DNA of 64,000 bases from a phage. The translations under genes and the position numbers were made by a program. The first letter of the stretch is position 1; every line of letters begins with the position of its first letter. Below the pieces are notes generated by a model, which made no database searches, was not told where the DNA came from, and saw nothing but the letters and a program-made list of their open reading frames with translations. Below, one piece after another: positions 1 through 61,550 of this stretch. The DNA lies in sequence record NC_103192.1. One strand, 5' to 3'.

Positions 1-339
1 CGTGAGTTCCCTCAAGCATTGGCAGCTGACAAAGAGACCAGATATGGTTGCCTAAGTAAACTGGGTGCGTTCTCCCGCTGGGAGCACTTATCTCCGAGAG
101 GTATTGTCTACGGAATCAATCTGTATACTCAGTTCTACCCAGGACCTAATGCTGAATATTTCTCAATCCTGAAAGGCTTTGAGCTAGTCAATAAGGTATT
201 CAGTGGATCGACTTTACCATTCTACATCCCTAAGATCGGGTGCGGCATAGGCGGTTTGAAGTGGGAGCACGTAGAGGACGTTATTAACCTTGCCACTTTT
301 GATATAGATATTATCGTGGTGGAGTACAAAGAGTGTTGA
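1..339 (+). CDS. Macrodomain protein, TARG1/DarG-like (5' end lies outside window)
   Basis: Frame is open to the window edge; C-terminal motif YIPKIGCGIGGLKWEHV...DIDIIVVEY resembles, from memory, the TARG1/OARD1 macrodomain signature PRIGCGLDRLQWENV...ITVYTL. Confidence 0.45.
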   Translation, partial: REFPQALAADKETRYGCLSKLGAFSRWEHLSPRGIVYGINLYTQFYPGPNAEYFSILKGFELVNKVFSGSTLPFYIPKIGCGIGGLKWEHVEDVINLATFDIDIIVVEYKEC

Positions 340-9277: not shown

Positions 9278-9294
9278 TTTCAGCAGGTGATTTT

Positions 9295-11273: not shown

Positions 11274-11369
11274 CGATTATTTTTTGTTGACATCTTGGGA
11301 TTGCTCTTTTACTATTAACGTGACTCGAAGGCCGTAACTGGTACGGCCTGATTCGAAAGGTGAATTAAT

Positions 11370-11570: not shown

Positions 11571-11585
11571 AAAGGAGTAATAAAA

Positions 11586-11777: not shown

Positions 11778-11861
11778 AATAGCTTGCACAATGTATCTGA
11801 TAGTGTAAGATGTATCACGTAGGGCGGCAATGGTGCCGCTCACAACTGGAAGGAAAACACC

Positions 11862-12065: not shown

Positions 12066-12117
12066 TCTTTACAAAACAGGGCTTGCAATGGTCCTGTTTT
12101 TTGTTATACTTATTCTA

Positions 12118-21090: not shown

Positions 21091-21360
21091 TTACTCTTCT
21101 ACAATCTCATACACATCCGGAGTTACAATCAACTCTTCCCCGTTACCTGGTGCAACAAACACTACCAAACCTTCAGGTGTGTGCTTTTTAGCCATCTCGA
21201 TGACATCTTCTCGCAGAGCTGGCTCCATCAGATCAAAACCTTCACCCAGGGCATCACGAACCACCTTCATGTAGTCAACTGGTTGTGCTTCAACGATCAT
21301 GCCTTCAACCAGTCCACAGTTTTTGTCTGCCAGTTCAGTTTGGAATAATTTAATTTTCAT
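21091..21360 (-). CDS. Small acidic protein, family A
   Basis: MKIKLFQTEL start; acidic. Confidence 0.45.
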   Translation of the reverse strand: MKIKLFQTELADKNCGLVEGMIVEAQPVDYMKVVRDALGEGFDLMEPALREDVIEMAKKHTPEGLVVFVAPGNGEELIVTPDVYEIVEE

Positions 21361-21503: not shown

Positions 21504-21815
21504 TCAAAAGTCAATCTTTACTTTACCTTTTCCCTTACCTTTCTTTCCACCGCATTTAGCCAACTGGCGTGCTGCAACATCCACCATACGGTCAGTTGCC
21601 TCGTAAGCATCACTACCTTTAGCTTTGGCGATAACTTCTTTTCCAGAAGTGTCAAAAATGAAAGCCATAACTTCCTGGTGATCATTTTCAACTTTTACAC
21701 TCACACGTGCATAGTTGGCAGAGGGGTGCAAACGCTCCAGCTTGGACATTTTGTTGGAAATGAAAGACACCATACCTTCAGTGATCTCTACGTTGCCAGT
21801 GATTTCAATTTGCAT
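21504..21815 (-). CDS. hpf: Ribosome hibernation promoting factor / RaiA-family protein
   Basis: MQIEITGNVEITEGMVSFISNKMSKLERL...DAYEATDRMVDVAARQLAK aligns by eye with E. coli HPF (MQLNITGNNVEITEALREFVTAKFAKLEQY...DMYAAIDGLIDKLARQLTK). Confidence 0.8.
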   Translation of the reverse strand: MQIEITGNVEITEGMVSFISNKMSKLERLHPSANYARVSVKVENDHQEVMAFIFDTSGKEVIAKAKGSDAYEATDRMVDVAARQLAKCGGKKGKGKGKVKIDF

Positions 21816-25621: not shown

Positions 25622-25849
25622 TTAGGTGCGGTCTCCATCCCTACTCTCCTTCCTGATATTCTTGTAGTAATCAACTAGGCACATTATTACGATGAAGATA
25701 ACAACAGGCCAAAAAGGTGCAGCAGTGATGATGGTGATAAAATCATCAAACTTCACCCTTCGTCTGGACACGATGCATACACCTGTCAAGAATACCGCTG
25801 TTATAACGGACATTACCAGGTAACCTATTAGCACAACATTTATACTCAT
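25622..25849 (-). CDS. Hypothetical membrane protein
   Basis: Two hydrophobic segments. Confidence 0.4.
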   Translation of the reverse strand: MSINVVLIGYLVMSVITAVFLTGVCIVSRRRVKFDDFITIITAAPFWPVVIFIVIMCLVDYYKNIRKESRDGDRT

Positions 25850-25879
25850 TGGTCCTCCCTTTGTAGGTTAAATTGTATA

Positions 25880-26413
25880 CTACAAATGGTCGCTGAGGGT
25901 GTCAAGAAAATTATCCCGTTCTTTCTCAGAGTTTTCATGTGTGTAGCTGAAAAACATATCGAGAATAACCTTATTGATATATTCCAGCTCCTCTGTGTTC
26001 AGATGCTTAGCAGGATCTACAATGACATCCCAAATATCATACAGACCACACTCATGATACCCATAACGCCACTCAATTGTCAAGCTGAGCGGCAAATCTT
26101 TACCTTCACAAACAACCTTCCATCTACATATGTTGGTATCTGGTCGTACCTGTGCACGGTACACCTGCACAAAATCCAATTTGAATTTGAGGTACTCGTC
26201 ATACAATTTAAGCACAAAGCTCTCGATTTGTGGAGACACTTTTGCAGCAAACTGTGCGTATTTGTACTTGCACTGGATGATCTTTCTGCGTTTTGCAGTT
26301 AAATTTTTTGCCGCCAGTTGTTCTTCAGTGTATCTCCACCTACGATCAACAAACGCAACAGGGTCTTTGTCCCCATAGAGGTCTTCCCAGTTAATCAGAA
26401 GCATACCTGTCAC
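25880..26413 (-). CDS. Hypothetical protein (177 aa)
   Basis: ORF in array. Confidence 0.45.
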   Translation of the reverse strand: MTGMLLINWEDLYGDKDPVAFVDRRWRYTEEQLAAKNLTAKRRKIIQCKYKYAQFAAKVSPQIESFVLKLYDEYLKFKLDFVQVYRAQVRPDTNICRWKVVCEGKDLPLSLTIEWRYGYHECGLYDIWDVIVDPAKHLNTEELEYINKVILDMFFSYTHENSEKERDNFLDTLSDHL

Positions 26414-31092: not shown

Positions 31093-31584
31093 TTAGTCAA
31101 CCTGAACCCAACCGCCTGCTACCTTTTTAAACATTCTTTGGTTATCACTGCCTCGGAATGGTTTCTTGGTTGGTAAATCTTTTACATACTTTCCATCAAT
31201 GACGATATCAGCCAGTTTAAGAACATCACTAGAGATATGCTCAAATGTGAACCCAGTATACACAAGAATAGTTTTCTTGTCACCAAACTTTTCCTTAATT
31301 CTCCTCATAAGGTTGATAATATCTGGCTCATTATAAGTAGCCAAAGGCTCTCCACCAAGTAAAGAAATACCGCATACAGATTCATTGTCTAAATCCAACA
31401 AAATTTTCTGCAAATCTTCTTCGGTGAACTCTCTTCCTTTATCTTTTGACCAAAATGCTTGATTAAAGCAACCAGGACAAGCGTGTGGGCACCCAGATAC
31501 CCACAAAGCTGTCCTAATACCTGGCCCCTCGGTGTAAGATATCTCTGTATACCCGACAATATTCATACATACTCCGCATCGCAT
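31093..31584 (-). CDS. nrdG: Anaerobic ribonucleotide reductase activating protein (radical SAM)
   Basis: Cys cluster CPHACPGC near N-terminus; size and position next to nrdD. Confidence 0.75.
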   Translation of the reverse strand: MRCGVCMNIVGYTEISYTEGPGIRTALWVSGCPHACPGCFNQAFWSKDKGREFTEEDLQKILLDLDNESVCGISLLGGEPLATYNEPDIINLMRRIKEKFGDKKTILVYTGFTFEHISSDVLKLADIVIDGKYVKDLPTKKPFRGSDNQRMFKKVAGGWVQVD

Positions 31585-31731
31585 TTAGGACAATGCCAAA
31601 TAAAATCGTCCAGTGCCTTACACCAACGAAGATTGCAATGACAACCACACTTGCAGATTTTATAGATACCCGATGACATACTGCACCTCCTTAGTTAATA
31701 GCATATTTAAAATATGCATATCTTTCTACGA

Positions 31732-32667
31732 TCATTTACCGCAGATCTCTTTATACGCTGCTTCCACTATGCTGAACACCTCAGGCCTGTAGTAGAAGAA
31801 TTCGGTGCTACCATTAAATTTTACAGGAAAGTTTATTTTACACTTGTTGAAAATCTCGTGCACAGATTTTTCTACACTTAGCATGTTTTTAGTCGATCCG
31901 CTCCATGTTTTCAATATATGTAAATCATGTAGACCCGCGCCAGATGTATGTGCGCTTTTTAATATCTCATCCTTTCTATTATCAACACGGACGCTCACAC
32001 CTATCTTCATGAGTGTAGGCAATTCTAGATCATCAACCATGATGTAAAGTTTACCACAATCGTGGGATAAAAATCCACTTTTGGTGCATTTAGGACATCC
32101 TCTCCCTCCTAAATGCTTGGTAGGGGATTGACAGAAATCTCCATGGTCTGTGCAAACAATTGTAACCTTGATGTGTGAATTCACATACCTAACTTTAGAG
32201 TAATCATACTTGTTCCCGTGGACAGCCACAGCGTCCTGGATAAACTCTTCAGTGGTCTTTTTCATAGATCCGCCACATCCTGGACAGCCGTGACCACGCT
32301 TAAGGCTACCAGGAGTAGCTGACCATTCGTGGTTGCAAACTTTGCAACGACATAATACTTTATTACACCCTGTAGTGATCTCTTCTAATATTTCAATATA
32401 AGTATTTTTCTTCCCTATGTCCTCAACCCACTTTTCATGAGGTTTGGTTTTACTTTGTGCTATTTTTAGCTTCCTGCATTCAGGACACCCGCATTTTTGA
32501 TTTAGATGTATATCAGGTGTTTGGGCAAAGTGGGTGCCGCAGTGCTTACATATTATCTCCACTTTATCTTTACAGGTTTTATAGTCCACAAGAGAGTAGT
32601 CGTATTTATCACCATGTTTCTCTCTAGCCCTCCCTATAAATTCCTCCGTTGTCAGTCGTCTGGTCAC
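31732..32667 (-). CDS. Free-standing homing-endonuclease-like protein (tandem Zn-ribbon modules, T5orf172/GIY-YIG-like C-terminus)
   Basis: Two repeats of TTEEFI...HG.KYDYS.V.Y...C..HG; C-terminal KLYIMVD...KIGVS block; inserted between nrdG and nrdD. Confidence 0.4.
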   Translation of the reverse strand: MTRRLTTEEFIGRAREKHGDKYDYSLVDYKTCKDKVEIICKHCGTHFAQTPDIHLNQKCGCPECRKLKIAQSKTKPHEKWVEDIGKKNTYIEILEEITTGCNKVLCRCKVCNHEWSATPGSLKRGHGCPGCGGSMKKTTEEFIQDAVAVHGNKYDYSKVRYVNSHIKVTIVCTDHGDFCQSPTKHLGGRGCPKCTKSGFLSHDCGKLYIMVDDLELPTLMKIGVSVRVDNRKDEILKSAHTSGAGLHDLHILKTWSGSTKNMLSVEKSVHEIFNKCKINFPVKFNGSTEFFYYRPEVFSIVEAAYKEICGK

Positions 32668-32734
32668 CGCTAAATCCTCTTGGTTGCTAATCTATGTACT
32701 AAGTGTGCCACATCCTTGTGGCTTTTGTCAAGTA

Positions 32735-34759: not shown

Positions 34760-35556
34760 CTGTCTCCTCCCTGTGTTTCCACAGGGCCAGACTATCTCTT
34801 ACTCTACTTCAATAAGATAATAACCCTTTATTGTGAGATGCTTACCTTCGGCATTTCCTTCGATAGCCCTATGAACGTTACCTACGTTCAAATTTAAGGC
34901 TTTTGCACAGGCATAGAGTGAAGGATATTCACCAACCAAGGTTTTCCCTTTGTATGCCTGCACTTTCCTATAGCACTTACCTGGACAAAGTCCTGTTCGG
35001 AAAGCATGTCTCTTATTATCTTCCGGCAAAACCCACTCTAGGTTAGACGGATGATCATTCAATGTATTGCCATCTTTATGATTCACTTCCCAGTTTTCAG
35101 GGTCTTCTGGGACATCTGGCAAACAATACAAGGCAACAACCCTTGAGGTTTGGATTCGAATCTTTTTACCTTTGTGGTTGAAAGAGTACATATAACGGCG
35201 TTTAACATGCTTGTTACCTTTTCCATAACCTCCCCACAATATTGGGTGTAGCATTCCACGTTTTCCGTATACGTTTCCAACCTCATCAATCACATAGTTT
35301 GACTCTTCACCATTAAGAATGATCTTTTTCATAGAGCCTCTCCATTTCGAAGTTAGTATTTCAACTAACCCCTACACTACTTGGTTCAGAAATGTTTGTC
35401 AAGCATCTCTGCCTTTCGTTAGTCGTTACAACCGTTCCAACTCCTGTAAGAACTAGTCACGGGATTGGCGTAGCTTTCGCCTTAGCGTTCCCCGTTAGCC
35501 GGATTTACCGACCCCTCTTATGAGGTTAGGAGAGTTTTACAACGGCCAGTTTGTTA
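34760..35556 (-). mobile_element. Group I intron 1 in nrdD (contains HNH endonuclease ORF)
   Basis: Exon 1 ends ...SVNG then in-frame stop; exon 2 starts QTPF; intron 3' end has GAGATAGTCTGG plus hairpin; 5' part has GTTGTAACGACTAACG core-like element. Confidence 0.65.
34799..35332 (-). CDS. HNH homing endonuclease (intron-encoded)
   Basis: VNHKDGNTLNDHPSNLEWV HNH_3-type motif. Confidence 0.7.
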   Translation of the reverse strand: MKKIILNGEESNYVIDEVGNVYGKRGMLHPILWGGYGKGNKHVKRRYMYSFNHKGKKIRIQTSRVVALYCLPDVPEDPENWEVNHKDGNTLNDHPSNLEWVLPEDNKRHAFRTGLCPGKCYRKVQAYKGKTLVGEYPSLYACAKALNLNVGNVHRAIEGNAEGKHLTIKGYYLIEVE

Positions 35557-36417
35557 ACCGTTGACAGAAGTTAACGTATTGATTTGATAGAGCAAAGTCT
35601 GCATGCTGTCAAATACGTCTTTATCTGTCATTTGCATTGCAACAGTCTCAGCATCTGGCAACCAATGTTCCTGGCAAAATTTAAGGTTCTTCTCATAGGT
35701 CGCTTCAGCATACTGTGCCAGATAATGATCAATATGACTCATGGTCTGACCGCCATATTGAGCACTAGCTACTGCACTAGAGATTTGGCTAAGGATTGTT
35801 GTTGCAACCCCTATTGACTTCGGCTTACTGACATGGGCGTTACCAATGTTGAATCCGTTTTCCAACATATCTGGATAATTTACCAAACAACAGTTTGTTA
35901 ACGGACTGATCAAATAGTCAAGATCATGCACATGGATGAAGCCTTTGTTGTGCTCTTCGGAGACACGGTCTGGCAGGATCTGTGTTGATGCAAGGTGTTT
36001 GCTAAGGATGCCTGCAAGCAGGTCACGATGAGTATGCACATGATTAGTAGGCTTATTTGCGTTTTCTTTTGTAAATTCATCACAAGTACGATCCAAGAAG
36101 CCACTAATATCGGCAAGCAGTTTTCCACCTGCCTCTCTGTTATTATCTCTTGTCTGTCTATACTGGATGTATTCTCTGGCTGCACATTTTAAACCCATAT
36201 CCATAAGAGCATCTTCAACAAGGATATGGATATTTTTTACAGAGATCGTGCACTGGTCAGTTGGCAGATTGTTGGCAACAACTTCATTAACCGCACAGGC
36301 AATCCGGTAAGCTTCTTCTTCAGTATGTCCAGACTCAAGTAAGGCGGACTCTGCCGCCTTGATCACCTTAATTCCGTTATAGACCTCTTCTCTACCGTCC
36401 CGTTTTACAACTTTCAC
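35557..36417 (-). CDS. nrdD: NrdD, exon 1 (ATP-cone and N-terminal core)
   Basis: MKVVKRDGREEVYNGIKVIKAAE ATP-cone start; NENANK...RDLLAGI, HDLDY, PKSIGVAT blocks match E. coli NrdD. Confidence 0.8.
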
Positions 36418-42720: not shown

Positions 42721-44280
42721 TCAGCCCTCTTTAGCATCAATATACTTGCACACAATCTCAGATGCGCACTCCCAAGGAGCTCCCTCGGGGTTAACAACAT
42801 CAAACTCGATACCTTTTATCCCGTTCTTCTCTAAGCTAAGGTAAGTTCTGGAATCATTTCCCCAATCATATCCTGCACGGTGGATACGGAACAGTAGAAG
42901 ATCGCCACCTGTGCTGTATGCGTACTCGCCAAGGCATGCCAGCTCCTCTTTGAAGCCACCGTCGGAGTAAACAACAACCCCTTTACCTTCAGGGAAATCT
43001 TTCTTCAAGGATGCGACTGCGGCCTTACCGAAAGCATCTTCACCAAAGATAGGTTTAATCAGATTTTCACTACAATGGATCATCCATTCTCGCGGAGAAA
43101 CATGCTTGCCGTCTATCATTAAGAACGGGCACGGTTCTTCTTTGTAGCGGCGATCATAAAGTGCATTCCACAACTGTGGTGAAATACCCGCTGCCTTAAT
43201 TGCCACACTGAATAGCATTTCCTTTACCTCGCGGTGATGCGAGTTTGGAATGGCTTCCAACAAAAGATCTGCGATATGGTCTTTTCCACTGTTACCTGTT
43301 AAAAACACCATACCGTTTTGTCTTGCCACCCAAAATCCGGTTGTTGTGGTAAAGCAGTAACACTTACCCCCAGGTAACTCCTCTTTGTAAGGTTGAAAAG
43401 CTTTATCTGGATTATCATATCCGCCACTTTTACGCATCGAATAAGAGTCTGACTTTAGAATTTTTACCGCATAGCAAACGCTACGAGTTCTGCTCTCTTT
43501 ATCACACTCCCTTTTGTAGTTATCTATTTCAATTTTGGCCTTTCTTCCACATTTTGCTGCTAAAAGCTGAAACAGATCTGCCTCCTCTTTAGAAGTGGTT
43601 GAGAAAGATTTGTATTTCTCGCACCCATCCCATTTCAGCATCTCGTTTAGTAGTTTTTCACTAGCATTAGAAGAGAGATTCCACCAATGGCTAGGTATAC
43701 CATCTTTCTTCATGAAAGGGCTGTTGTAAATGAAAAAACGGGTGTAGCCAGGCATACTATCAAACTCTTTTTCGGAAAAGGTTACTCCAGTTCTTTTAAA
43801 TAAGTATCGTAGCCTCTCCTTTTTACGGTCCTTTTTAATATTAAACATCAAAACACCCTCCCGATTTTTAACCTCAGAGGAGTCTGCTAAGATTGCAACT
43901 CTAAGCAGGTCAAAATCGTCAACATCCTCTCCAGATTCTTGATGGAAGGTGGCAGGTATATATCCATCGTAGCCAGTTTTGGATTCCAAAGTTATCTCTG
44001 ACCACTCTCTAGCAATTCTTGATCCTCTTCTGTTTTCATACAGAACTTTGTGGTTAGGTGTTAAAACCATGGACCATGTGGCAAAAACGCCCTTTTCAAA
44101 AACTGGAGTATTGCCTTCAATAAATTCAGGTATCTCCCAATGCATTGCCCCAAATTTATCGCACACTGCCACGAAATCATTATCAAAATCTTCTATACTT
44201 TTCCACCCAGATTTGGTGAGGAACTCTGTACCACTCGGGACGCAGCACGGTGGAGCGTTAAGAACAATAATATCCATCAA
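42721..44280 (-). CDS. P-loop nucleotide kinase-like protein interrupted by an intein
   Basis: N-extein MMDIIVLNAPP(C) and C-extein SGKDHIADLL reconstitute a Walker-A-like loop; insert starts CVPSGTEF, has TPNH block and ends FLTGN before Ser. Confidence 0.5.
   Translation of the reverse strand: MMDIIVLNAPPCCVPSGTEFLTKSGWKSIEDFDNDFVAVCDKFGAMHWEIPEFIEGNTPVFEKGVFATWSMVLTPNHKVLYENRRGSRIAREWSEITLESKTGYDGYIPATFHQESGEDVDDFDLLRVAILADSSEVKNREGVLMFNIKKDRKKERLRYLFKRTGVTFSEKEFDSMPGYTRFFIYNSPFMKKDGIPSHWWNLSSNASEKLLNEMLKWDGCEKYKSFSTTSKEEADLFQLLAAKCGRKAKIEIDNYKRECDKESRTRSVCYAVKILKSDSYSMRKSGGYDNPDKAFQPYKEELPGGKCYCFTTTTGFWVARQNGMVFLTGNSGKDHIADLLLEAIPNSHHREVKEMLFSVAIKAAGISPQLWNALYDRRYKEEPCPFLMIDGKHVSPREWMIHCSENLIKPIFGEDAFGKAAVASLKKDFPEGKGVVVYSDGGFKEELACLGEYAYSTGGDLLLFRIHRAGYDWGNDSRTYLSLEKNGIKGIEFDVVNPEGAPWECASEIVCKYIDAKEG
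43291..44244 (-). mobile_element. Intein (Hint domain with degenerate LAGLIDADG-like region)
   Basis: Hint blocks A (C-x-x-x-G-T), B (TPNH), terminal ...GN then S; internal LLRVAILADSS resembles a LAGLIDADG motif. Confidence 0.5.
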
Positions 44281-51906: not shown

Positions 51907-53190
51907 TCATTCCAGCACCTCCCAAGTGTCTGGGTTAACATTTCGAACGCAGATACCGACAGGGAATTGGTAGTTGTTGTCTTCTGTCCTTGCTTGGTAT
52001 TTGAAGGTGATAAACTTGCCGATCATTTCCTGCATCCTGTCATAGCTACGCTCCTCGTGAGTGCCTTTCATCTTCATTTTAACAACAACACCTTCCTTGT
52101 CAACACAGATAAGAACACCTTCATCATTCTTATCTTTCTCAACGTCAATAACTTTCACCTCTGCGTCGTTGAACTTTTTCCATTTCAATGCTTCAGATGT
52201 TCGCTGACCATACTCATATTTACCACAGAAATTACGCATGATAGTACCTTCATATCCTTCGGACATGAATATACCAACAGATTCTTCGCAATGATCAACT
52301 GTGTACGCAAGCTCTGCGTCAACAACCTTGATATGGTCAAGCATCAGAGTGGTAACGGTATCCTCTGCATCCATAAGATCCTTGCAGCGTCCAGACTCTG
52401 TTTCTGGATCCCACCACACCTTGTCGCTAGGAATATCAAAAATGTGATACTCCAGATCGTAGCTACAGTACCCACCATAACGCAAATCATCACGAACAGG
52501 CTCAACATCGACAGGAATATCTACCTTGTTGAAGTTTTTGTATGTTGATAAGCCTGCCTTAATTGCGGCATGACGGCGTTTTTTATCTGCCTCATAGTCT
52601 TTATCGATCTCGGCCTGAATCTCTTCCTGTGTGCGCCACCGTTTAGCAAGAGACACTATTTTCTGCAAAGGAAGACCATGAATGTATAGTTCCCCATCAA
52701 GTTGTTTAATCCCAGTGGTGAAGTGGAAAGAACGAAGTTGCTCCAGAAGCTTTCCTTGAATAGGGTAGGACTTATTACCACGGGAAATAAATTTAGGCTC
52801 ACCATTCTGGAAAACAACAAGTAGACGAAGGCCATCTAACTTACGCAAGATCCAGCAAGGTAATTTAAGTGCCTTGCCACGCTTCAGGTAGTCATGCACC
52901 AACATGGGTAAAAGGTCAACACCCTGCTCGCAATCTTCCATATTTTCAACATACCCCAGACGGACTTGTTTTTCCCACTTACTGATCGCTTCCAGCTCAG
53001 CCTGTTGCTCAGCTGTAGTTTCATTGGCACGACCCACGTTCTTAGGTGTGCAGATCGTCTCTTTGTATTGCAGTTTACCATCAAGCTTGCCAAACTCTAC
53101 GATAACCTTATCACCATCCGTGAATACTTTCCACTGTTGGTAGCTGCCATCTTTGTTCAGTGCGTACAGTGTTGTTTTGATCTGATGCAT
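51907..53190 (-). CDS. ATP-dependent polynucleotide ligase (DNA ligase-like)
   Basis: Motif I RKLDGLR (KxDGxR), motif IV EGTIMR, motif V LKWKKF. Confidence 0.6.
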   Translation of the reverse strand: MHQIKTTLYALNKDGSYQQWKVFTDGDKVIVEFGKLDGKLQYKETICTPKNVGRANETTAEQQAELEAISKWEKQVRLGYVENMEDCEQGVDLLPMLVHDYLKRGKALKLPCWILRKLDGLRLLVVFQNGEPKFISRGNKSYPIQGKLLEQLRSFHFTTGIKQLDGELYIHGLPLQKIVSLAKRWRTQEEIQAEIDKDYEADKKRRHAAIKAGLSTYKNFNKVDIPVDVEPVRDDLRYGGYCSYDLEYHIFDIPSDKVWWDPETESGRCKDLMDAEDTVTTLMLDHIKVVDAELAYTVDHCEESVGIFMSEGYEGTIMRNFCGKYEYGQRTSEALKWKKFNDAEVKVIDVEKDKNDEGVLICVDKEGVVVKMKMKGTHEERSYDRMQEMIGKFITFKYQARTEDNNYQFPVGICVRNVNPDTWEVLE

Positions 53191-53459: not shown

Positions 53460-53805
53460 TGCAGTCCTCCTTCTCTAATAGGTCTTTTATCGGGTAAACA
53501 AGCAGGTGTGGATCGTAATAATTTATAGTCTTATTCTGCCACACTATGAACTTAATTACAACTAAATTTACCACATCTTTATCTCCATGTAGTCCAACGC
53601 ACAAATTTGTCCATATTTTGTGGTTGAATACTTTGCTGTCGATGTAGATCTTAGTGTCAAACTTATCCTCTATCCTGCCTATGAGTTTAACCAACTCTTT
53701 CATCTGATCCCCAAACACAGCATCGTTTTCAAGATCTCTAGAGTGCTTGTACATAACTATCTGCCTCACTTGCATACTTTCCACAACAAGTAAAGCCGGG
53801 ATCAC
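53446..53805 (-). CDS. Hypothetical protein
   Basis: ORF in array. Confidence 0.4.
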   Translation of the reverse strand: MIPALLVVESMQVRQIVMYKHSRDLENDAVFGDQMKELVKLIGRIEDKFDTKIYIDSKVFNHKIWTNLCVGLHGDKDVVNLVVIKFIVWQNKTINYYDPHLLVYPIKDLLEKEDCNAVI

Positions 53806-53817
53806 CCGGCTATGTTG

Positions 53818-54531
53818 TTAAATATACTCTGTTACATCCTTGAAGCTTGAAGGCTTCATGATCTTACCTTTACTGTCAAGGAATATGATAACTTTATTAC
53901 CGTTGTAGAATTCTTCCTTAGCAACAAAACCTTCATATCGACCATCAAAGCGTCGCTCAAGATCTTTAATCTCCAACTCGATGAGTTGTTCAGCAGGCAT
54001 ATCTGCACTGGCACCGTGTGAATACCGTAGATGATTTACCCGTGCAAACTTGCTGTCATTCGATTTGAGAACCTTACGCATCATCCCGCACACATCGCCG
54101 CGAAGCTGGAACAGCAAAGCTGTTGACAACTCTGCTAAGCGGTAAGCGGATGCTCTTTGCTTAGAGGTGTTTTTCGCAGCGATCAGTGTATCATAGAACT
54201 CACCGATCTTGAACTTAAGACCCTGCGGATTATCAAACAGGTCTGACCACATTTTGTGATTATCATTAACAAGATAAGCGGCATAACTTGTGACAACGTG
54301 AAGATCGCAGGCCTCTTTTAGCAGGTGATCTCCGCCATCACCTTTCTCCAGCTCTTCCAAAACTTCATTGAACTCTTCCTCAATGAAGCTAAGCTGTAAT
54401 TCGAACGGTGTGTATGATTTTTTCACTTTAGCTGCCACACGGTTCCAATTTTCCACCCAGTTGGCAGACCAAAGGTAGTTTTCAGGCTGAGACAGTTTTT
54501 CCAGGTTGTCGATCAGTTTAGTATTCAGCAT
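53818..54531 (-). CDS. Hypothetical protein, possible MazG-like NTP pyrophosphohydrolase
   Basis: FIEEEFNEVLEELEKGD...LLKEACDL resembles the MazG EExxE...E..D metal site; weak. Confidence 0.3.
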   Translation of the reverse strand: MLNTKLIDNLEKLSQPENYLWSANWVENWNRVAAKVKKSYTPFELQLSFIEEEFNEVLEELEKGDGGDHLLKEACDLHVVTSYAAYLVNDNHKMWSDLFDNPQGLKFKIGEFYDTLIAAKNTSKQRASAYRLAELSTALLFQLRGDVCGMMRKVLKSNDSKFARVNHLRYSHGASADMPAEQLIELEIKDLERRFDGRYEGFVAKEEFYNGNKVIIFLDSKGKIMKPSSFKDVTEYI

Positions 54532-54545: not shown

Positions 54546-55307
54546 TTACAGTTCCATAAAGTTTTCTACGATGTCAATGAATGTTTTATCAGAGAAAGCG
54601 TCAACCGCCCCGTTAAACCAAACTGGGATGCCGCGATCCTCATACTGGTAAATGTCACTACGTGAAATGCCATTCTCCCCTAAATGCTGTGAGTCGTATT
54701 TGTTAACGATCAGTAGTTTAGTCCCCTTACTACAGGCAGGAAACAGCTCCCAGTTAAAATTGATAACTGTGTTGGAGCACCCTACAAGAATAACCATATC
54801 ATTGCTAGTCAGAGAAGTCAACAGGTCATACATGTCTGTATACTTTGGAGCTACTTCTCCGAAGAACACTACATTAGGCTTGACCCAAGTATACTTGCTT
54901 GCATCTACCTCAGAGTATCCAATGTCTTTAATGACGTCACTCCCCTCATCATCCTCATAGACTATTTCTGGCAAATATCCGTGGACATGTAAAATATCTT
55001 CATGTTTTACACCAGCACGCTCCAGCAAATCATCTACATTGGTGGTCAGGTTGATCACACGACCAGACCAGCGGGAATACCACTCAGCGATCCGAAGATG
55101 CGCAAGGTTAGGATCAACACTGCCCAGAGCTACACGTCGTGCATTGTAAAAGTCATGCACCTTATAGTAGTTCTTGGCAAAGGTGTGGATGTTACACACC
55201 TCATCGATGCTGAAATTCTCCCACATTGCAGTGCCACCAGACCGGAAAGTGGGGATACCAGATTCAGCGCTCAAACCAGCACCGGAGATAATGATCAGTC
55301 GTCGCAT
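54546..55307 (-). CDS. Sir2-family NAD-dependent deacylase/ADP-ribosyltransferase
   Basis: GAGLSAESGIPTFRSGG...MWENF, TTNVDDLLERAG, VHGYL catalytic His; no clear Zn-ribbon cysteines. Confidence 0.75.
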   Translation of the reverse strand: MRRLIIISGAGLSAESGIPTFRSGGTAMWENFSIDEVCNIHTFAKNYYKVHDFYNARRVALGSVDPNLAHLRIAEWYSRWSGRVINLTTNVDDLLERAGVKHEDILHVHGYLPEIVYEDDEGSDVIKDIGYSEVDASKYTWVKPNVVFFGEVAPKYTDMYDLLTSLTSNDMVILVGCSNTVINFNWELFPACSKGTKLLIVNKYDSQHLGENGISRSDIYQYEDRGIPVWFNGAVDAFSDKTFIDIVENFMEL

Positions 55308-55315: not shown

Positions 55316-55666
55316 TCAGTAGATGTTTTGTTTAATCTCTATTCCAAACTTTTTAAACGAGTCAGCTGCAAGCATGAATTTACGAGCAGCTGATGGGTTA
55401 GAAGTATGCACGAAAATCTTCACGTTGTCAACTACAGGAGGCTTACCAAATACAAATTTTTCCTCTAGGAGGCAGAAGCAATCGTATCCTTCAAGAATTT
55501 CTCCCAAGTCGCTGTCAAAATGCCACTCAGAAACGCGCCTGTAGAGCTTTCCCTTATCGTTAATAAAATCCATAAACTCAGAAGAATTCTTTAGCCACAG
55601 AGCGTCTGGGAGTCCATAATCTGACGGATCTCTAAAATCATCAAGCCACACAATCCACTTCTTCAT
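55316..55666 (-). CDS. Hypothetical protein
   Basis: 4-nt overlap with upstream ligase gene. Confidence 0.4.
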   Translation of the reverse strand: MKKWIVWLDDFRDPSDYGLPDALWLKNSSEFMDFINDKGKLYRRVSEWHFDSDLGEILEGYDCFCLLEEKFVFGKPPVVDNVKIFVHTSNPSAARKFMLAADSFKKFGIEIKQNIY

Positions 55667-56598
55667 TGCATATAGTCCTCGTTGTGGAAATAGTAGTCCA
55701 GTATCTCACGACGCTCCTGCTCTAATAAGCAATTCCACACATCTTCTGTATAGTTGCTACGAATAAATTTTACCATACCGTAAAACTCTTCGTCAACACG
55801 TTTAAAGATATCATCATCCCAAATCTTCCAAGCTTTACCCCTCATTACGGCCTTCCGTGCCAAATAGTATGGAGACTTGATCTTCAGCTGCAGATCATAA
55901 GGGTAGTAAGGCTTACGAATCATATACCCTTCACCTCTTGTTTCTGCAGCTAATTCTTTTGCATAGCTGAACGGAATTTCACGCACAGTGTGAGGACGTT
56001 TTGCACCAAGGTATTTGGCAATCCCATCTAAAGCTGCTTCTGGTAGCATTATTCCAGAATCATTATATCTGCAACCTATCAAATATGCGCCATGATCTTC
56101 CTGAACAATATGCGGATCTGAAGGGTGACAAATTTCAAACATGAATGTCATGTTTTCATGGCCCATAACCTTCTTGATAAGATCTAAATTACCACATTGC
56201 TCCTGGATGGTTTCCTTTGCAAGGTTACAATATGGAGAATCAAGAGACCCGGTTGTTGAAAACAATAGTTCACCTTTATGAGATGATACCACACCAAGGA
56301 ATCCGTTCTTTTTCTCTACCACCGTCACAAGTTTATTGTCAGGCAGGTTGGTGGAATTTTCTCCCAAGTTAAACACTTTTGTGAAGGGCCATGCCACAAC
56401 ATTTCCTTCATTACCGACAACAATGCCTCGGCACTCCAGCAAACGAGGAGACAAATGCCATAAATTGTTGTAGAATACTTTTCTGGCATATTTATAGATC
56501 TTTAACCCAAGATCCGGGTAATATCTGCTGGTTACAAGACCTTTGTCAACTAGGTCGTCTGCATTAAAATACTTCATCATACATTCCTCATTTGTCAT
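55663..56598 (-). CDS. RNA ligase-like nucleotidyltransferase
   Basis: Motif I VVEKKNGFLG, motif IV EGYMIRK, motif V LKIKSPYYL; context with kinase and phosphoesterase. Confidence 0.5.
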   Translation of the reverse strand: MTNEECMMKYFNADDLVDKGLVTSRYYPDLGLKIYKYARKVFYNNLWHLSPRLLECRGIVVGNEGNVVAWPFTKVFNLGENSTNLPDNKLVTVVEKKNGFLGVVSSHKGELLFSTTGSLDSPYCNLAKETIQEQCGNLDLIKKVMGHENMTFMFEICHPSDPHIVQEDHGAYLIGCRYNDSGIMLPEAALDGIAKYLGAKRPHTVREIPFSYAKELAAETRGEGYMIRKPYYPYDLQLKIKSPYYLARKAVMRGKAWKIWDDDIFKRVDEEFYGMVKFIRSNYTEDVWNCLLEQERREILDYYFHNEDYMQ

Positions 56599-56698: not shown

Positions 56699-57109
56699 AT
56701 GTCTAAAATGCTATATATCGTGCGTGGTCTACCAGGGTCTGGCAAATCAACACTGGCAAATGCGCTATCTTTAGAAGGTCTGTACCCACATTTTGAGAAC
56801 GACATGTTCTGGTACGACGATGACGGCAATTACAACTGGGATGCAAGTAAAGTAACACTTGCAGCAAAATGGTGCAAAGATAACGTAGAAGATATGATGC
56901 GTATGGGATACGACCGTATCGTGGTAAGTAATACGTTTACAAAAGAAAAATATGTTCAAGAATATATTGACATGGCGATCAGTCATGGATATAGTTATAC
57001 CGTGATCGTGGTTGAAAACCGCCATGGTAATAAAAGCATTCATGATGTTCCAGACAGGGTTGTGGATCGTATGGAACGCCAGCTTAAAAACTGCATTAAA
57101 CTTAAATGA
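56699..57109 (+). CDS. Polynucleotide kinase-like P-loop kinase
   Basis: Walker A GLPGSGKST at residues 10-18; SD ggaggg; 137 aa. Confidence 0.6.
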   Translation: MSKMLYIVRGLPGSGKSTLANALSLEGLYPHFENDMFWYDDDGNYNWDASKVTLAAKWCKDNVEDMMRMGYDRIVVSNTFTKEKYVQEYIDMAISHGYSYTVIVVENRHGNKSIHDVPDRVVDRMERQLKNCIKLK

Positions 57110-57116: not shown

Positions 57117-57671
57117 ATGAAATACTTTGTAACAAGCGACACACACTTTCTCCACCAGCGGGTAATGGAGTTCGACTCATGTCAAAAACACAGATCTCAG
57201 TATGATCACAATCTTGACAGTATGAATGCGGGAATCATCACCAAGTGGAACTCTGTTGTGTCACCTGCAGACACTGTGTTTCACTTGGGGGATATTGCGT
57301 GCACTAATGATAAGAATATCAACAAATTGCTTCCAGATGTTCTAAATATGTTGAACGGACATATTATTCTTGTTCGTGGTAACCATGACACAAGGACGAC
57401 TGTCAGAATTATGAAAGAGTTCGGTCATGAGGTTGTGGATTATTACGAGCTTCGCCACAACAAGAATTTGATCTGTATGAGCCATTACCAGTTTGCAACG
57501 TGGAACAGAAAGCATCACGGATCAGTCCAACTGTTCGGTCATGCTCACGGAACCACACAACAGTTGTTTGGCAGGCAGTTTGATGTCGGTTGGGATGTGT
57601 GGGGGAGACTCTTACCATTAGAAGAGGCATACCGTGTTGCAATGAGTTTTGCTATTGACAGCGGGGAGTAA
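57117..57671 (+). CDS. Calcineurin-like metallophosphoesterase
   Basis: SDTHF, GDIAC.ND, GNHD motifs in canonical order. Confidence 0.65.
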   Translation: MKYFVTSDTHFLHQRVMEFDSCQKHRSQYDHNLDSMNAGIITKWNSVVSPADTVFHLGDIACTNDKNINKLLPDVLNMLNGHIILVRGNHDTRTTVRIMKEFGHEVVDYYELRHNKNLICMSHYQFATWNRKHHGSVQLFGHAHGTTQQLFGRQFDVGWDVWGRLLPLEEAYRVAMSFAIDSGE

Positions 57672-60600: not shown

Positions 60601-60675
60601 GCCACCCAGTGCCCTGTTAGCTTAGTGGATAAAGCAGCGGCCTTCTAAGCCGTTGACACTGGTTCGAGTCCAGTA
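60601..60675 (+). tRNA. tRNA-Arg (anticodon TCT)
   Basis: Hand-folded cloverleaf: acceptor GCCCTGT/ACGGGGT, anticodon loop CTTCTAA, T-loop TTCGAGT, CCA encoded. Confidence 0.7.
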
Positions 60676-60815
60676 CGGGGTGCCAAGTTCTTTTTAATGT
60701 AGCTTACTTTAGCAGAGTAAATCTTCGGCAAGTGGCGGTAACCACTTTACCGATACCTCATAGTTAGTGGTGAGAACACTAGCTATTTTAAAAAGAATTT
60801 AAATATTAGTATTTA

Positions 60816-60903
60816 GGTGAGTTAATTCCGTAGGGGTAGCGGGGCAGACTGTAAATCTGTTATCATTGCGATTCGGGTGGTTCGACTCCATCACTCACCA
60901 CCA
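60816..60903 (+). tRNA. tRNA-Tyr (anticodon GTA), long variable arm
   Basis: Acceptor GGTGAGT/ACTCACC, anticodon arm CAGACTGTAAATCTG as in E. coli tRNA-Tyr, T-loop TTCGACT, CCA. Confidence 0.7.
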
Positions 60904-61017
60904 AATTTATATTTTTAAATGCATAAATCATACAGATAATGGCATTGATATTTATCGTCGTTTATACTAGTCACTAACTGCTCGAAAATCAGTGTCATTA
61001 TCAGTATTGTTTATAAA

Positions 61018-61108
61018 AGAGGGTAGGGAGCAATGGTGCTCAAGCGGTCTTGAAAACCGTCCCGTTGAGGATGACTCGATGATGGTTCGATTCCATTATC
61101 CTCTGCCA
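61018..61108 (+). tRNA. tRNA-Ser (anticodon TGA), long variable arm
   Basis: Acceptor AGAGGGT/ATCCTCT, anticodon arm CGGTCTTGAAAACCG, T-loop TTCGATT, CCA. Confidence 0.7.
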
Positions 61109-61206
61109 TATTGTTGACTATGTAATTAAGCGAAAGCCGGAAGCAGAACCGGATTATCAAATGTTACAGTCGTCATCGCCGACTAGCAACATGGTCAACA
61201 TACTGA

Positions 61207-61305
61207 GCTAGGTAAGCCCTTTGGCAAGGGCGAGGATTTTTAATCCTGAAAATAGACGAGGTAGTCGTTGAATACATAGGTGGTTCGATTCCATCACCTA
61301 GCACC
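61207..61305 (+). tRNA. Atypical tRNA-like element (type II shape, irregular anticodon arm)
   Basis: Acceptor GCTAGGT/ACCTAGC, D-arm GCCC/GGGC, T-loop TTCGATT, long variable arm; anticodon region is either a 5-nt loop or a 4-bp stem with TTTTTAA loop; no CCA. Confidence 0.35.
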
Positions 61306-61310
61306 TTTTT

Positions 61311-61386
61311 GCTGATGTAGCACAATTGGTAGTGCAATTGATTTGTAATCAATAGGTTGCAGGTTCAAGTCCTGCCATCAGCACCA
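61311..61386 (+). tRNA. tRNA-Thr (anticodon TGT)
   Basis: Acceptor GCTGATG/CATCAGC, anticodon loop TTTGTAA, T-loop TTCAAGT, CCA. Confidence 0.75.
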
Positions 61387-61387
61387 T

Positions 61388-61462
61388 GGCCCTGTAGCTG
61401 GAAGGTTCAAGCAAGCGACTCATAATCGCCAGACGGTGGTTCAATTCCACCCAGGGCCACCA
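61388..61462 (+). tRNA. tRNA-Met or Ile2 (anticodon CAT)
   Basis: Acceptor GGCCCTG/CAGGGCC, anticodon loop CTCATAA, T-loop TTCAATT, CCA. Confidence 0.75.
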
Positions 61463-61473
61463 AATAATAAATA

Positions 61474-61550
61474 CTCCGCGTAGCTCAGCTTGGTAGAGTG
61501 CCTGATTTGGGATCAGGAGGTCGAGTGTTCGAATCACTCCGTGGAGACCA
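61474..61550 (+). tRNA. tRNA-Pro (anticodon TGG)
   Basis: Acceptor CTCCGCG/CGTGGAG, anticodon loop TTTGGGA, T-loop TTCGAAT, CCA. Confidence 0.75.

What the first reader, a model, noticed from the sequence alone, without database searches (positions are those of the whole stretch)
54546..55307. Phage Sir2-family enzyme, encoded in the same genome as a macrodomain
The sequence has a canonical sirtuin Rossmann signature and catalytic His. Sir2 domains act as NAD-consuming effectors in several bacterial defense systems, while true sirtuins deacylate or ADP-ribosylate; the same genome encodes a TARG1-like macrodomain, an enzyme class that processes O-acyl-ADP-ribose or reverses ADP-ribosylation. 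A phage sirtuin could modify host or phage proteins or manipulate NAD pools.
Basis: partly seen in the sequence, partly recalled or inferred. Interest (0 to 1): 0.55.

Follow-up and report, generated by a model that had tools for sequence, protein, structure and literature searches.

The report
Phage sirtuin inside an RNA-repair operon
This is a real, well-conserved sirtuin (NAD-using enzyme) gene of an rV5-like E. coli phage; it is already annotated in over a thousand phage genomes and sits in an RNA-repair gene cluster, not paired with the distant macrodomain gene, and its true substrate has never been tested.

Summary
The ORF at 54546-55307 (minus strand, 253 aa) is a genuine Sir2-family gene (Pfam E=1.3e-26), closest in sequence and predicted fold to E. 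coli CobB and SIRT5. The NAD-binding motifs, catalytic His109 and the class-III Tyr54/Arg57 pair are invariant in the clade. All Zn-binding cysteines are lost, and the canonical TQNID glutamine is always threonine. The window is a Vequintavirus (rV5-like) phage, and homologs occur in 1012 phage records. The gene lies in a tight unit, Rnl1 RNA ligase - cREC - Sir2 - MazG-like, divergent from a P-loop kinase and a calcineurin-like phosphoesterase. T5-like phages couple the same sirtuin to a HAD "Swiss-army-knife" RNA-repair phosphatase. Iyer et al. 2022 described exactly this neighbourhood and proposed KptA-like removal of RNA 2'-phosphate. The macrodomain is real (DarG/Poa1p/TARG1 class, T4 Tk.4 homolog) but lies 54 kb away, cut by the window edge. 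A complete T5-like genome has the Sir2 and no macrodomain. The macrodomain family is nearly three times more widespread, including in T4. The gene does not resemble defence NADase Sir2 models. Verdict: observation confirmed, interpretation partly supported, already known, biochemistry untested.

The parts
54546..55307 (-). Sir2-family (sirtuin) gene, 253 aa. Zn-less, with Thr in place of the TQNID Gln, and the class-III Tyr54/Arg57 pair retained.
55316..55666 (-). cREC (cyclic-phosphate processing receiver domain) protein, 116 aa. It lies immediately upstream of Sir2 (8-bp gap) and its start overlaps the Rnl1 stop by 4 bp.
   Evidence: Pfam PF20274 E=3.2e-13; phrog_1479; junction sequences.
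55663..56598 (-). T4 Rnl1-type RNA ligase, 311 aa; first gene of the unit.
   Evidence: Pfam PF09511 E=1.3e-15; phrog_562 E=4e-66.
53818..54531 (-). MazG-like nucleotide pyrophosphohydrolase candidate, 237 aa, 14 bp downstream of Sir2 with a GGAGG Shine-Dalgarno sequence.
   Evidence: phrog_671 E=5.5e-22. No Pfam, NCBIfam or PDB hit. Called a MazG superfamily member in PMC9503650.
56610..56638 (-). Sigma-70-like promoter match (TTGACA-17-CAGAAT with an extended TG) just upstream of Rnl1, in the 100-bp divergent intergenic region.
   Evidence: This is a consensus match only.
53794..53811 (.). GC-rich hairpin (AGCCGGG-TGAT-CCCGGCT) just after the MazG-like stop codon; terminator-like on both strands.
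   Evidence: This is a consensus match only.
56699..57109 (+). P-loop nucleotide/polynucleotide kinase, 136 aa, divergently transcribed from the Rnl1 unit.
   Evidence: Pfam AAA_33 E=2.7e-10; annotated as polynucleotide kinase in relatives.
57117..57671 (+). Calcineurin-like metallophosphoesterase, 184 aa.
   Evidence: Pfam Metallophos E=1.3e-5.
51907..53190 (-). ATP-dependent DNA ligase, 427 aa. It is a recurrent near neighbour of this Sir2 in rV5/Mydovirus-like lineages.
60611..61550 (+). Phage tRNA gene cluster about 3 kb beyond the kinase/phosphoesterase genes. Given as context only.
1..336 (+). C-terminal 112 aa of the macrodomain protein (T4 Tk.4 homolog, DarG/Poa1p/TARG1 class), truncated by the window edge. 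It belongs to the finding but not to the Sir2 unit.

Best explanation
The gene encodes an active NAD+-cleaving sirtuin of a phage-restricted clade. The clade descends from class-III (CobB/SIRT5-like) sirtuins and has lost the structural zinc site. The gene is expressed as the third gene of a four-gene unit: Rnl1 RNA ligase, cREC, Sir2, MazG-like pyrophosphatase. Together with the divergently transcribed kinase and metallophosphoesterase, this unit forms the phage's RNA (tRNA) end-healing and sealing module, a counter to host anticodon or other RNA nucleases. The proposed mechanism within that module is as follows. The sirtuin uses NAD+ to remove a blocking 2'-phosphate left after a 2',3'-cyclic phosphate end is opened. 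An oxygen of the phosphate attacks C1'' of NAD+ and nicotinamide leaves. The ribose 2''-OH, activated by His109, then attacks the phosphorus, releasing 2'-OH RNA and ADP-ribose 1'',2''-cyclic phosphate. cREC and the MazG-like enzyme then degrade that by-product, and Rnl1 seals the RNA. What is shown here: family, intact catalytic residues, fold, operon-like layout, recurrence of RNA-repair neighbours, and restriction to phages. What is inferred: NAD consumption, participation in RNA repair, and above all the RNA 2'-phosphate substrate, which is the hypothesis of Iyer et al. 2022.
For: Catalytic and NAD-binding residues are invariant in 121 homologs, and selection is strongly purifying. The AF2 model is confident (pLDDT 90) and has a CobB-like fold. 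The genes are tightly packed (4-bp overlap, 8-bp and 14-bp gaps) between a promoter-like site and a hairpin. Rnl1, kinase, phosphoesterase, MazG-like protein and sometimes cREC lie within about 4 kb of Sir2 in rV5-like, Mydovirus-like and four further Sir2 lineages, although gene order is rearranged. A non-homologous RNA-end phosphatase, HAD_SAK_2 (E=5e-20), lies 0.8-1.3 kb downstream of Sir2 in 28 of the 29 loci that carry it, spanning 4 Sir2 lineages, mostly T5-like. An Rnl1-type ligase lies two genes upstream of a 41%-identical Sir2 in a 608-kb jumbo phage. NAMPT or NADAR genes are the next large ORFs upstream of distant versions, consistent with real NAD turnover. No KptA/Tpt1 homolog was found in the whole rV5-like genome, the whole T5-like genome or the 61 loci. 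The protein scores far below the CobB equivalog cut-offs. Clade-specific changes fall in elements that build the substrate cleft: Zn module cysteines lost, Q to T, and VYP to VIN. The same proposal was made independently in PMC9503650, section 3.7.3. The two-step chemistry of sirtuins and of Tpt1 is formally parallel (established knowledge).
Against: No sirtuin is known to act on an RNA phosphate. The protein is acidic (pI 4.8, clade median 5.1), like the CobB core (5.4) and unlike E. coli KptA (9.4). CobB acyl-lysine pocket residues are conserved or conservatively replaced: A76/C38, Y92/Y54, R95/R57, I131/V91, V187/V146. That is what a protein deacylase would keep. Several Sir2 lineages (phi92-like and relatives) show no recognisable RNA-repair neighbours. 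The T5-like genome has no RNA ligase homolog. A kinase, a metallophosphoesterase and Rnl1 could in principle heal and seal without a 2'-phosphotransferase. Phage gene order is partly inherited synteny, so the lineages are not fully independent. The promoter and terminator calls are consensus matches only.
Confidence: 0.4

Rival explanations
1. It is an ordinary protein lysine deacylase (CobB/SIRT5-like deacetylase or desuccinylase). It removes acyl groups from host or phage proteins during infection, and its position among RNA and DNA ligase genes is inherited synteny or reflects protein targets in that module. A variant of this idea is deacylation of N-acylated aminoacyl-tRNA or of repair enzymes.
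For: The closest sequence and fold relatives are all bona fide deacylases. N90, D92, H109, the FGE loop and the acyl-pocket equivalents are conserved, and the class-III Tyr54-x-x-Arg57 pair that binds acidic acyl groups is invariant. The pI is acidic like the CobB core. Some lineages lack RNA-repair neighbours.
Against: All NCBIfam CobB and deacylase models score far below their cut-offs; the best is 120.6 bits against 243. The Zn-binding cysteines that define canonical sirtuins are absent, and the TQNID Gln is replaced throughout the clade. The host already encodes CobB. The association with three different kinds of RNA-end enzymes recurs. No acyltransferase partner was seen.
Confidence: 0.33
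2. It is a processor of small NAD/ADP-ribose-derived molecules, or an NAD glycohydrolase. It would manipulate NAD pools or destroy NAD-derived immune signals or toxic metabolites, working with cREC and the MazG-like enzyme on soluble nucleotides rather than on RNA.
For: Its neighbours are predicted nucleotide and cyclic-phosphate hydrolases. Distant versions sit near NAMPT, NADAR or a nucleoside deoxyribosyltransferase-like gene. PMC9503650 argues that many phage ADPr-processing domains target soluble derivatives.
Against: There is no similarity to any PADLOC defence Sir2 NADase model. The fold and pocket are deacylase-like, with an intact acceptor tunnel. NAD depletion would harm a lytic phage; some phages encode NAD-rebuilding pathways (PMC13464706).
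Confidence: 0.12
3. One reading: the sirtuin and the TARG1-like macrodomain form a functional writer/eraser or product-clearing pair. The macrodomain would remove O-acyl-ADP-ribose made by the sirtuin or reverse ADP-ribosylation it writes, as in SirTM-macro systems.
For: Both genes are in the same genome. The macrodomain is of the TARG1/DarG/Poa1p class, whose members hydrolyse O-acyl-ADPr, ADPr-1''-phosphate or ADP-ribosylated nucleic acids. Either sirtuin product could in principle be a macrodomain substrate.
Against: The genes are 54 kb apart, on opposite strands, in different gene blocks. A whole T5-like genome has the Sir2 but no macrodomain. The macro family is in 2730 records, mostly T4-like, against 1012 for the Sir2. 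PMC9503650 notes that this sirtuin clade is not coupled to an adjacent macro gene. By my recollection SirTM enzymes lack the catalytic His, whereas His109 is invariant here. The macrodomain's best profile match is DarG, which suggests an independent anti-DarT role.
Confidence: 0.05

Closest known systems
Phage 'RNA-repair' sirtuin clade of Iyer, Burroughs, Anantharaman & Aravind 2022 (PMC9503650, section 3.7.3; type 2 neighbourhood prototyped by Escherichia phage V5 and Proteus phage Mydo)
   Same: The gene family and the neighbourhood are the same: T4-like RNA ligase, cREC, nucleotide kinase, MazG-like protein and calcineurin-like phosphoesterase. The window is an rV5-like genome, 96% identical at nucleotide level to annotated relatives. 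The protein is 99.6% identical to the annotated Sir2 of phage NHEP1.
   Different: Nothing essential differs; this is a member. Details added here: Thr89 is invariant and the Zn cysteines are lost, while jumbo-phage relatives keep both canonical features. The four-gene unit has boundary signals. No KptA was found. The macrodomain is decoupled from the Sir2.
E. coli CobB / human SIRT5 (class III sirtuins, NAD-dependent protein deacylases)
   Same: They are the best sequence and fold matches: E~3e-21, TM 0.75/0.85, 27% identity. The GAGxS, FR, PNxAH, N-x-D, HG and FGE motifs and the Tyr-x-x-Arg pair are shared.
   Different: The protein scores far below the NCBIfam CobB cut-offs. It has no Zn-binding cysteines, Thr replaces the TQNID Gln, and VYP becomes VIN. 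The clade is essentially phage-restricted, with 1 member among 185,579 species genomes. Its genomic context is RNA repair.
Tpt1/KptA RNA 2'-phosphotransferase (ADP-ribosyltransferase fold)
   Same: The proposed job is the same: NAD+-dependent removal of an RNA 2'-phosphate, giving ADP-ribose 1'',2''-cyclic phosphate. It has comparable partners (cyclic phosphodiesterase, ligase, kinase). No KptA homolog was found in the Sir2-bearing genomes and loci tested.
   Different: The fold is unrelated and there is no sequence similarity. KptA is basic (pI 9.4) whereas this protein is acidic (pI 4.8). The activity is hypothetical here.
Defence-system Sir2 NADases (ThsA, DSR1/2, Sir2-HerA, SPARSA)
   Same: They share the Sir2 superfamily Rossmann core and NAD+ binding.
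   Different: No PADLOC model matches at E<=0.01, and none appears among the top 50 fold matches. The protein is a stand-alone 253-aa enzyme with no sensor or partner domains, and it is encoded by a lytic phage.
SirTM-macrodomain operons (for example the Streptomyces phage Moab type in PMC9503650)
   Same: A sirtuin and a macrodomain are encoded in one genome.
   Different: In those systems the two genes are adjacent and co-transcribed; here they are 54 kb apart and phylogenetically decoupled. Similarity at the Moab locus is only 25%.

Membership tests
Sir2/sirtuin superfamily (Pfam PF02146) | Significant match to the family profile above the curated threshold | tested here: met
   94.1 bits against a cut-off of 24, E=1.3e-26, covering profile positions 1-178 of 180.
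Sir2/sirtuin superfamily (Pfam PF02146) | Rossmann NAD-binding motifs (GAGxS, FR) and the catalytic Asn, Asp and His | tested here: met
   G9AG11, S16, F21, R22, N90, D92 and H109 are invariant in 121 clade sequences and align with CobB G48AG50, F60R61, N130, D132 and H147.
Sir2/sirtuin superfamily (Pfam PF02146) | Sirtuin two-domain fold (Rossmann domain plus small domain) | tested here: met
   AF2 model with pLDDT 90 and pTM 0.88. Foldseek top hits are CobB, Af1 and SIRT5, TM up to 0.76/0.85, E~6e-18.
Canonical sirtuin deacylases (CobB, SIRT1-7, Sir2Tm) | Zn2+-binding module with four (in CobB, three or four) cysteine ligands (feature as stated in PMC8603916) | tested here: not met
   There is no Cys between H109 and F148. 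CobB C155/C174/C176 align with Y117/Y139/W141, and these positions are never Cys in 121 clade members. Jumbo-phage relatives L062 and L063 still have CxxC...CxxC.
Canonical sirtuin deacylases (CobB, SIRT1-7, Sir2Tm) | The conserved T-Q-N-I-D motif with Gln | tested here: not met
   The motif is T-T-N-V-D, with Thr89 in 121 of 121 clade members. CobB, L062, L063 and L016 have Gln.
CobB protein deacylase (NCBIfam NF040867, NF001753 and related equivalogs) | Score at or above the curated equivalog/subfamily cut-off | tested here: not met
   The best score is 120.6 bits against a cut-off of 243; NF040867 scores 101.7 against 320.
Class III sirtuins (SIRT5/CobB type) | Tyr-x-x-Arg pair that binds acidic acyl groups (SIRT5 Y102/R105, CobB Y92/R95) | tested here: met
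   Y54 and R57 are invariant in the clade and align with CobB Y92 and R95.
Class III sirtuins (SIRT5/CobB type) | NAD-dependent lysine deacylase activity | not testable with these tools
   This needs an enzyme assay. No experimental paper on this clade was found.
Phage RNA-repair sirtuin clade (Iyer et al. 2022) | Sirtuin gene in a conserved neighbourhood with T4-like RNA ligase, cREC, nucleotide kinase, MazG-like pyrophosphatase and sometimes a calcineurin-like phosphoesterase | tested here: met
   All five partners lie within 2.4 kb in the window. The set recurs in other lineages.
Phage RNA-repair sirtuin clade (Iyer et al. 2022) | KptA-like RNA 2'-phosphotransferase activity | not testable with these tools
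   This is a hypothesis only. Indirect points: no KptA homolog found but an acidic pI.
Defence-associated Sir2 NADases | Match to ThsA, DSR, Sir2-HerA or pAgo-Sir2 profiles, or fusion/linkage to a sensor module | tested here: not met
   There are no PADLOC hits at E<=0.01. The protein has a single domain of 253 aa.
SirTM-macrodomain pair | Adjacent, co-transcribed macrodomain gene | tested here: not met
   The macro gene is at window 1..336 (+), 54 kb from the Sir2 on the other strand. It is absent from the Sir2-bearing T5-like genome SP15.
TARG1/DarG/Poa1p-class macrodomain (for the second gene in the finding) | Profile or sequence similarity to that macro class | tested here: met
   Tested on the full-length HMD-6 ortholog. 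PADLOC DarG E=6.8e-13. NCBIfam DarG E=1.5e-11, below its whole-protein cut-off because only the macro part matches. PDB hits are Poa1p 6lfu at 3.5e-5, DarG 5m3i at 4e-5 and TARG1 4j5r at 0.04. Pfam Macro E=3.4e-6.

The most novel reading that the evidence does not exclude
A sirtuin-fold enzyme that acts on nucleic acid rather than protein. The Zn-less, Thr89 phage clade would be an RNA 2'-phosphotransferase, a functional analogue of Tpt1/KptA that arose by convergence from a CobB-like deacylase. The class-III Tyr/Arg pair would be re-used to hold a phosphate. The enzyme would serve phage tRNA repair against host anticodon nucleases.
Probability: 0.3. Interest if true: 0.75.

Novelty: already known. 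Interest (0 to 1): 0.33.

Why it matters
Sirtuins are among the most studied NAD-dependent enzymes, yet this clade has no assigned substrate although it is present in over a thousand sequenced phages, including the classical phage T5 group. If it acts on RNA 2'-phosphate, it would extend sirtuin chemistry to nucleic acids and add an NAD-dependent step to phage tRNA repair. That is relevant to how phages escape tRNA-cleaving defences. If it is simply a deacylase, it would show that phages reprogram host protein acylation. Either result is directly testable with a small soluble protein and with genetically tractable phages such as T5 and the rV5-like BASEL phages. As a scan finding it is ordinary: the gene is correctly annotated in public records, and its context and the leading hypothesis were published in 2022.

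Tried and rejected
1. Literature searches for experimental work on phage sirtuins found only the computational survey PMC9503650. The 'phage Sir2' hit in PMC13464706 refers to the host anti-phage Sir2-HerA system. A search for SIRT5 Q140L/N141V papers, to interpret the Q-to-T change, found nothing.
2. The macrodomain is not at the position colinear with HMD-6 inside the window. tblastn showed it is cut by the window start.
3. A single-protein scan of viral contigs gave only 15 loci, so I repeated it with the alignment and obtained 60.
4. Sequence searches of the MazG-like protein, cREC and Rnl1 against solved structures gave no usable hits.
5. Phi92-like and related neighbours of Sir2 gave no informative Pfam matches, only DUF7275/DUF7277. 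That context remains unexplained.
6. The defence-NADase reading was rejected after the PADLOC and fold results.
7. The SirTM-macro pair reading was rejected on distance and on the two genes occurring separately.
Full report
OBSERVATION. An ORF occupies exactly 54546..55307 on the minus strand (ATG start, 253 aa), preceded by a GAGGA ribosome-binding site. It matches Pfam SIR2 (PF02146) at E=1.3e-26, 94 bits against a cut-off of 24, over almost the whole profile. It matches PHROG 2162 'Sir2 (NAD-dependent deacetylase)' at E=1.9e-108. Its best solved relatives are E. coli CobB (1s5p, 6rx*), human and zebrafish SIRT5, and Archaeoglobus Af1/Af2, at E about 3e-21. The gene is under strong purifying selection, with dN/dS 0.07 against a 93%-identical relative.

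WHAT THE GENOME IS. The 4 kb around the gene is 95-96% identical to more than 100 Vequintavirus (rV5-like) E. coli myoviruses, such as ECP32, NHEP1, FV3 and RudolfGeigy. In those records the gene is already annotated as a Sir2-like protein or NAD-dependent deacetylase. tblastn finds homologs in 1012 phage records: rV5-like at 92-99.6% identity, T5-like (Demerecviridae) at about 46-58%, Klebsiella Mydovirus-like at about 56%, phi92-like at about 48%, a 90-kb Salmonella phage at about 50%, and jumbo phages at 32-48%. A search of 5.8 billion clustered proteins returned 844 hits, and the top 120 all belong to this clade at 48-99% identity. A motif scan of one genome for each of 185,579 prokaryotic species found a single clade member, on a 43-kb contig of a Bacilli MAG, plus one ordinary sirtuin. 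The clade is essentially phage-restricted.

ANATOMY OF THE PROTEIN. I aligned 121 clade members with E. coli CobB.
- Invariant residues: G9-A-G11, S16, G17, F21-R22, W29, P66-N67, H70, N90, V91, D92, H109-G110, F148-F149, E151, G176, S178 and N202. This set includes the NAD-binding motifs, the catalytic Asn, Asp and His, and the FGE loop.
- The class-III pair that binds acidic acyl groups (CobB Y92/R95, SIRT5 Y102/R105) is invariant as Y54/R57.
- CobB acyl-pocket positions named in engineered-CobB PDB titles (A76, I131, V187) align with invariant C38 and V91 and near-invariant V146.
- Departure 1: the Gln of the canonical T-Q-N-I-D motif is Thr89 in all 121 sequences.
- Departure 2: the positions of the CobB zinc ligands (C155, C174, C176) are Y117, Y139 and W141, and are never Cys.
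- Departure 3: the G-T-S-x-x-V-Y-P segment is G-C-S-N-x-V-I-N.

The more distant jumbo-phage versions L062 and L063 (41-42% identity) still carry TQN(I/C)D and CxxC...CxxC, and L016 keeps Gln but not the cysteines. Loss of zinc and the Q-to-T change therefore arose inside the phage radiation.

An AlphaFold2 model built on 47 sequences is confident (mean pLDDT 90, pTM 0.88). The former zinc module (residues 110-146) is predicted at pLDDT 93-95 as a three-stranded sheet. Only the cofactor-binding loop (23-27) and an rV5-specific insertion (about 203-215) are weak. All 50 Foldseek hits listed against the PDB are deacylase-type sirtuins, led by CobB (TM 0.75/0.85), then Af1, SIRT5, SIRT2 and Sir2Tm. 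All NCBIfam CobB/deacylase models score far below their curated cut-offs, the best being 120.6 against 243. No PADLOC defence-system Sir2 model matches at E<=0.01. The protein is acidic (pI 4.84, clade median 5.14), like the CobB core at 5.42.

SURROUNDINGS.
- On the minus strand the genes are tightly packed: Rnl1-type RNA ligase (55663-56598, PF09511 E=1.3e-15), then cREC 'cyclic-phosphate processing receiver' (55316-55666, PF20274 E=3.2e-13, 4-bp overlap), then Sir2 (8-bp gap), then a MazG-like pyrophosphohydrolase candidate (53818-54531, phrog_671 E=5.5e-22, 14-bp gap).
- A sigma-70-like match (TTGACA-17-CAGAAT with TG) lies at 56638-56610, just upstream of Rnl1.
- A GC-rich hairpin lies at 53811-53794, just after the MazG-like gene. 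Both are consensus matches only.
- Two small ORFs and an ATP-dependent DNA ligase (51907-53190) follow.
- Divergently, on the plus strand, come a P-loop kinase (56699-57109, AAA_33 E=2.7e-10) and a calcineurin-like phosphoesterase (57117-57671, E=1.3e-5).
- A tRNA gene cluster lies about 3 kb further on (60611-61550).

IS THE CONTEXT CONSERVED? I gathered 61 Sir2 loci from IMG/VR with 10-kb flanks. I searched their ORFs with profiles of the window's neighbours and clustered all ORFs within 3.5 kb of Sir2 de novo. Three context groups emerge.
- Group A comprises rV5-like, Mydovirus-like and four further Sir2 lineages, with genomes of about 137-153 kb. Rnl1, kinase, phosphoesterase, MazG-like protein, DNA ligase and in some lineages cREC lie within about 4 kb, but in rearranged order and orientation.
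- Group C comprises the T5-like lineages, with about 30 loci. None of those genes is present. Instead, a HAD_SAK_2 'Swiss Army Knife RNA repair' phosphatase (PF18143, E=5e-20) lies 0.8-1.3 kb downstream in 28 of the 29 loci that carry it, across 4 Sir2 lineages.
- Group B comprises phi92-like phages and relatives. It has recurrent neighbours with no informative annotation.

Among distant versions, a 608-kb jumbo phage has an Rnl1-type ligase (E=2.7e-28) two genes upstream of its Sir2. Others have NAMPT or a NADAR-domain gene as the next large ORF upstream, or a nucleoside deoxyribosyltransferase-like gene directly downstream. No KptA/Tpt1 homolog was found in the window, the whole rV5-like genome HMD-6, the whole T5-like genome SP15 or any of the 61 loci.

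PRIOR DESCRIPTION. [quoted passage not shown] That is exactly this locus. Their type 3 (phage SP15) has the HAD Swiss-army-knife phosphatase. [quoted passage not shown] They propose that it acts like KptA, removing the 2'-phosphate that remains after a 2',3'-cyclic phosphate end is opened. My neighbourhood analysis reproduces their description independently. I found no experimental test of it.

THE MACRODOMAIN. Only the C-terminal 112 residues are inside the window (1..336, plus strand). The full 152-aa protein is annotated in HMD-6. Its matches are Pfam Macro (E=3.4e-6), the DarG macrodomain in PADLOC (6.8e-13) and NCBIfam (1.5e-11). Among solved structures it matches yeast Poa1p ADP-ribose-1''-phosphatase, DarG macrodomains and, weakly, TARG1. 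'TARG1-like' is therefore fair at class level.

The macrodomain is a homolog of T4 Tk.4 (about 40% identity) and occurs in 2730 phage records, mostly T4-like. To my knowledge T4 has no sirtuin, and no record of T4-like genome size (about 165-170 kb) appears among the sampled Sir2 hits. Conversely, the complete T5-like genome SP15 has the Sir2 but no macrodomain homolog at E<=0.01. The two genes are 54 kb apart, on opposite strands, in different gene blocks. Co-occurrence in rV5-like phages is therefore not evidence of a functional pair. A DarG-like macrodomain more plausibly counters ADP-ribosylating host toxins on its own, although it could incidentally clear ADPr-1''-phosphate or O-acyl-ADPr.

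MECHANISM. Three things are shown here. The sirtuin active site is intact. The fold is CobB-like with a zinc-less small domain. The gene is embedded in an RNA end-healing/sealing module, and this association recurs with non-homologous RNA-end enzymes in separate lineages. The inference I favour, at about 0.4, is that the enzyme performs an NAD-dependent step in RNA (tRNA) repair. The specific KptA-like reaction, at about 0.3, is chemically reasonable from established sirtuin and Tpt1 mechanisms. In both, a substrate oxygen attacks C1'' of NAD+ with loss of nicotinamide, and the ribose 2''-OH then attacks the activated centre to give a 1'',2''-cyclic species. cREC and the MazG-like enzyme are plausible consumers of ADP-ribose 1'',2''-cyclic phosphate.

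Several points count against this reading. There is no precedent for such a sirtuin substrate. The protein is acidic, whereas KptA has pI 9.4. The acyl-lysine pocket is conserved. Group B lineages lack RNA-repair neighbours. The T5-like genome has no RNA ligase homolog. A kinase, a phosphoesterase and a ligase can in principle heal and seal without a 2'-phosphotransferase. The main rival, at about 0.33, is a conventional CobB/SIRT5-like protein deacylase.

VERDICT. The gene, its family, its neighbourhood and the leading hypothesis are already in the public record, so as a scan finding it is already known. The remaining interest lies in the untested biochemistry of a very widespread phage sirtuin clade. 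The small additions made here are the invariant Q-to-T change, the point in the phage radiation where zinc was lost, the four-gene unit, the absence of KptA, and the decoupling from the macrodomain.

Noticed in passing
window 1..336 (+): This is the C-terminal part of a macrodomain protein cut by the window edge. It is a homolog of T4 Tk.4 found in 2730 phage records, and its best profile match is the DarG antitoxin macrodomain. That suggests a possible anti-DarT (DNA ADP-ribosylation) counter-defence role independent of the Sir2.
   Followed up: partly
window 60611..61550 (+): This is a tRNA cluster on which ARAGORN and Rfam disagree for two members. ARAGORN calls a tRNA-Ser at 61018-61108 that is not in the Rfam gathering-score list, and Rfam calls a tRNA at 60816-60900 that ARAGORN does not report. 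The element at 61207-61305 is an odd, long tRNA-like sequence with a 4-base anticodon call and only 35.5 bits.
   Followed up: partly
window 21504..21815 (-) and 21091..21360 (-): These are small ORFs at the positions where the relative HMD-6 annotates a 'ribosome-associated translation inhibitor RaiA' and a 'sigma 54 modulation factor'. They would be phage-encoded ribosome hibernation-factor-like proteins.
   Followed up: no
L064 7142..7648 (Escherichia phage SP15, HWA82_gp118): RefSeq labels this 168-aa protein 'Sir2 (NAD-dependent deacetylase)', but it is a HAD_SAK_2 phosphatase (Pfam E=5e-20). A Sir2 homolog in Klebsiella phage vB_Kpn_3 is likewise mislabelled 'tail assembly protein'.
   Followed up: yes
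phage records MG065654, MG065662 and others: Between 18 and 25 records named 'Campylobacter phage' are rV5-like genomes of 135-141 kb with a Sir2 92% identical to this E. coli phage gene. The host label looks doubtful.
   Followed up: no
window 9270-9636, 10433-12074, 25753-26361, 31202-32706, 34760-35558, 43288-44249: These are breaks in colinearity with phage HMD-6 (insertions, deletions or replaced segments). In the relative, HNH homing endonucleases are annotated nearby, including one that splits the anaerobic ribonucleotide reductase gene.
   Followed up: no
L074 323..796 (-) = HMD-6 113322..113795, outside the window: This 157-aa protein is annotated 'polynucleotide kinase'. It has a HAD motif I (DFDGT) but no Pfam hit. 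It may be the missing 3'-phosphatase half of a split T4 Pnkp-like system.
   Followed up: partly
L060 8039..9490; L016 7451..7993; L062 7576..9720; L063 10704..11195: Distant phage Sir2 genes lie close to NAMPT (nicotinamide salvage), a NADAR domain protein, an Rnl1 ligase plus an arginase-family protein, and a nucleoside 2-deoxyribosyltransferase-like protein, respectively.
   Followed up: partly
L068 14641..16594 (SP15): The T5-like genome carries an NAD-dependent DNA ligase annotated as two adjacent ORFs about 9 kb from the Sir2. The rV5-like genome instead has an ATP-dependent ligase 1.4 kb from its Sir2.
   Followed up: no
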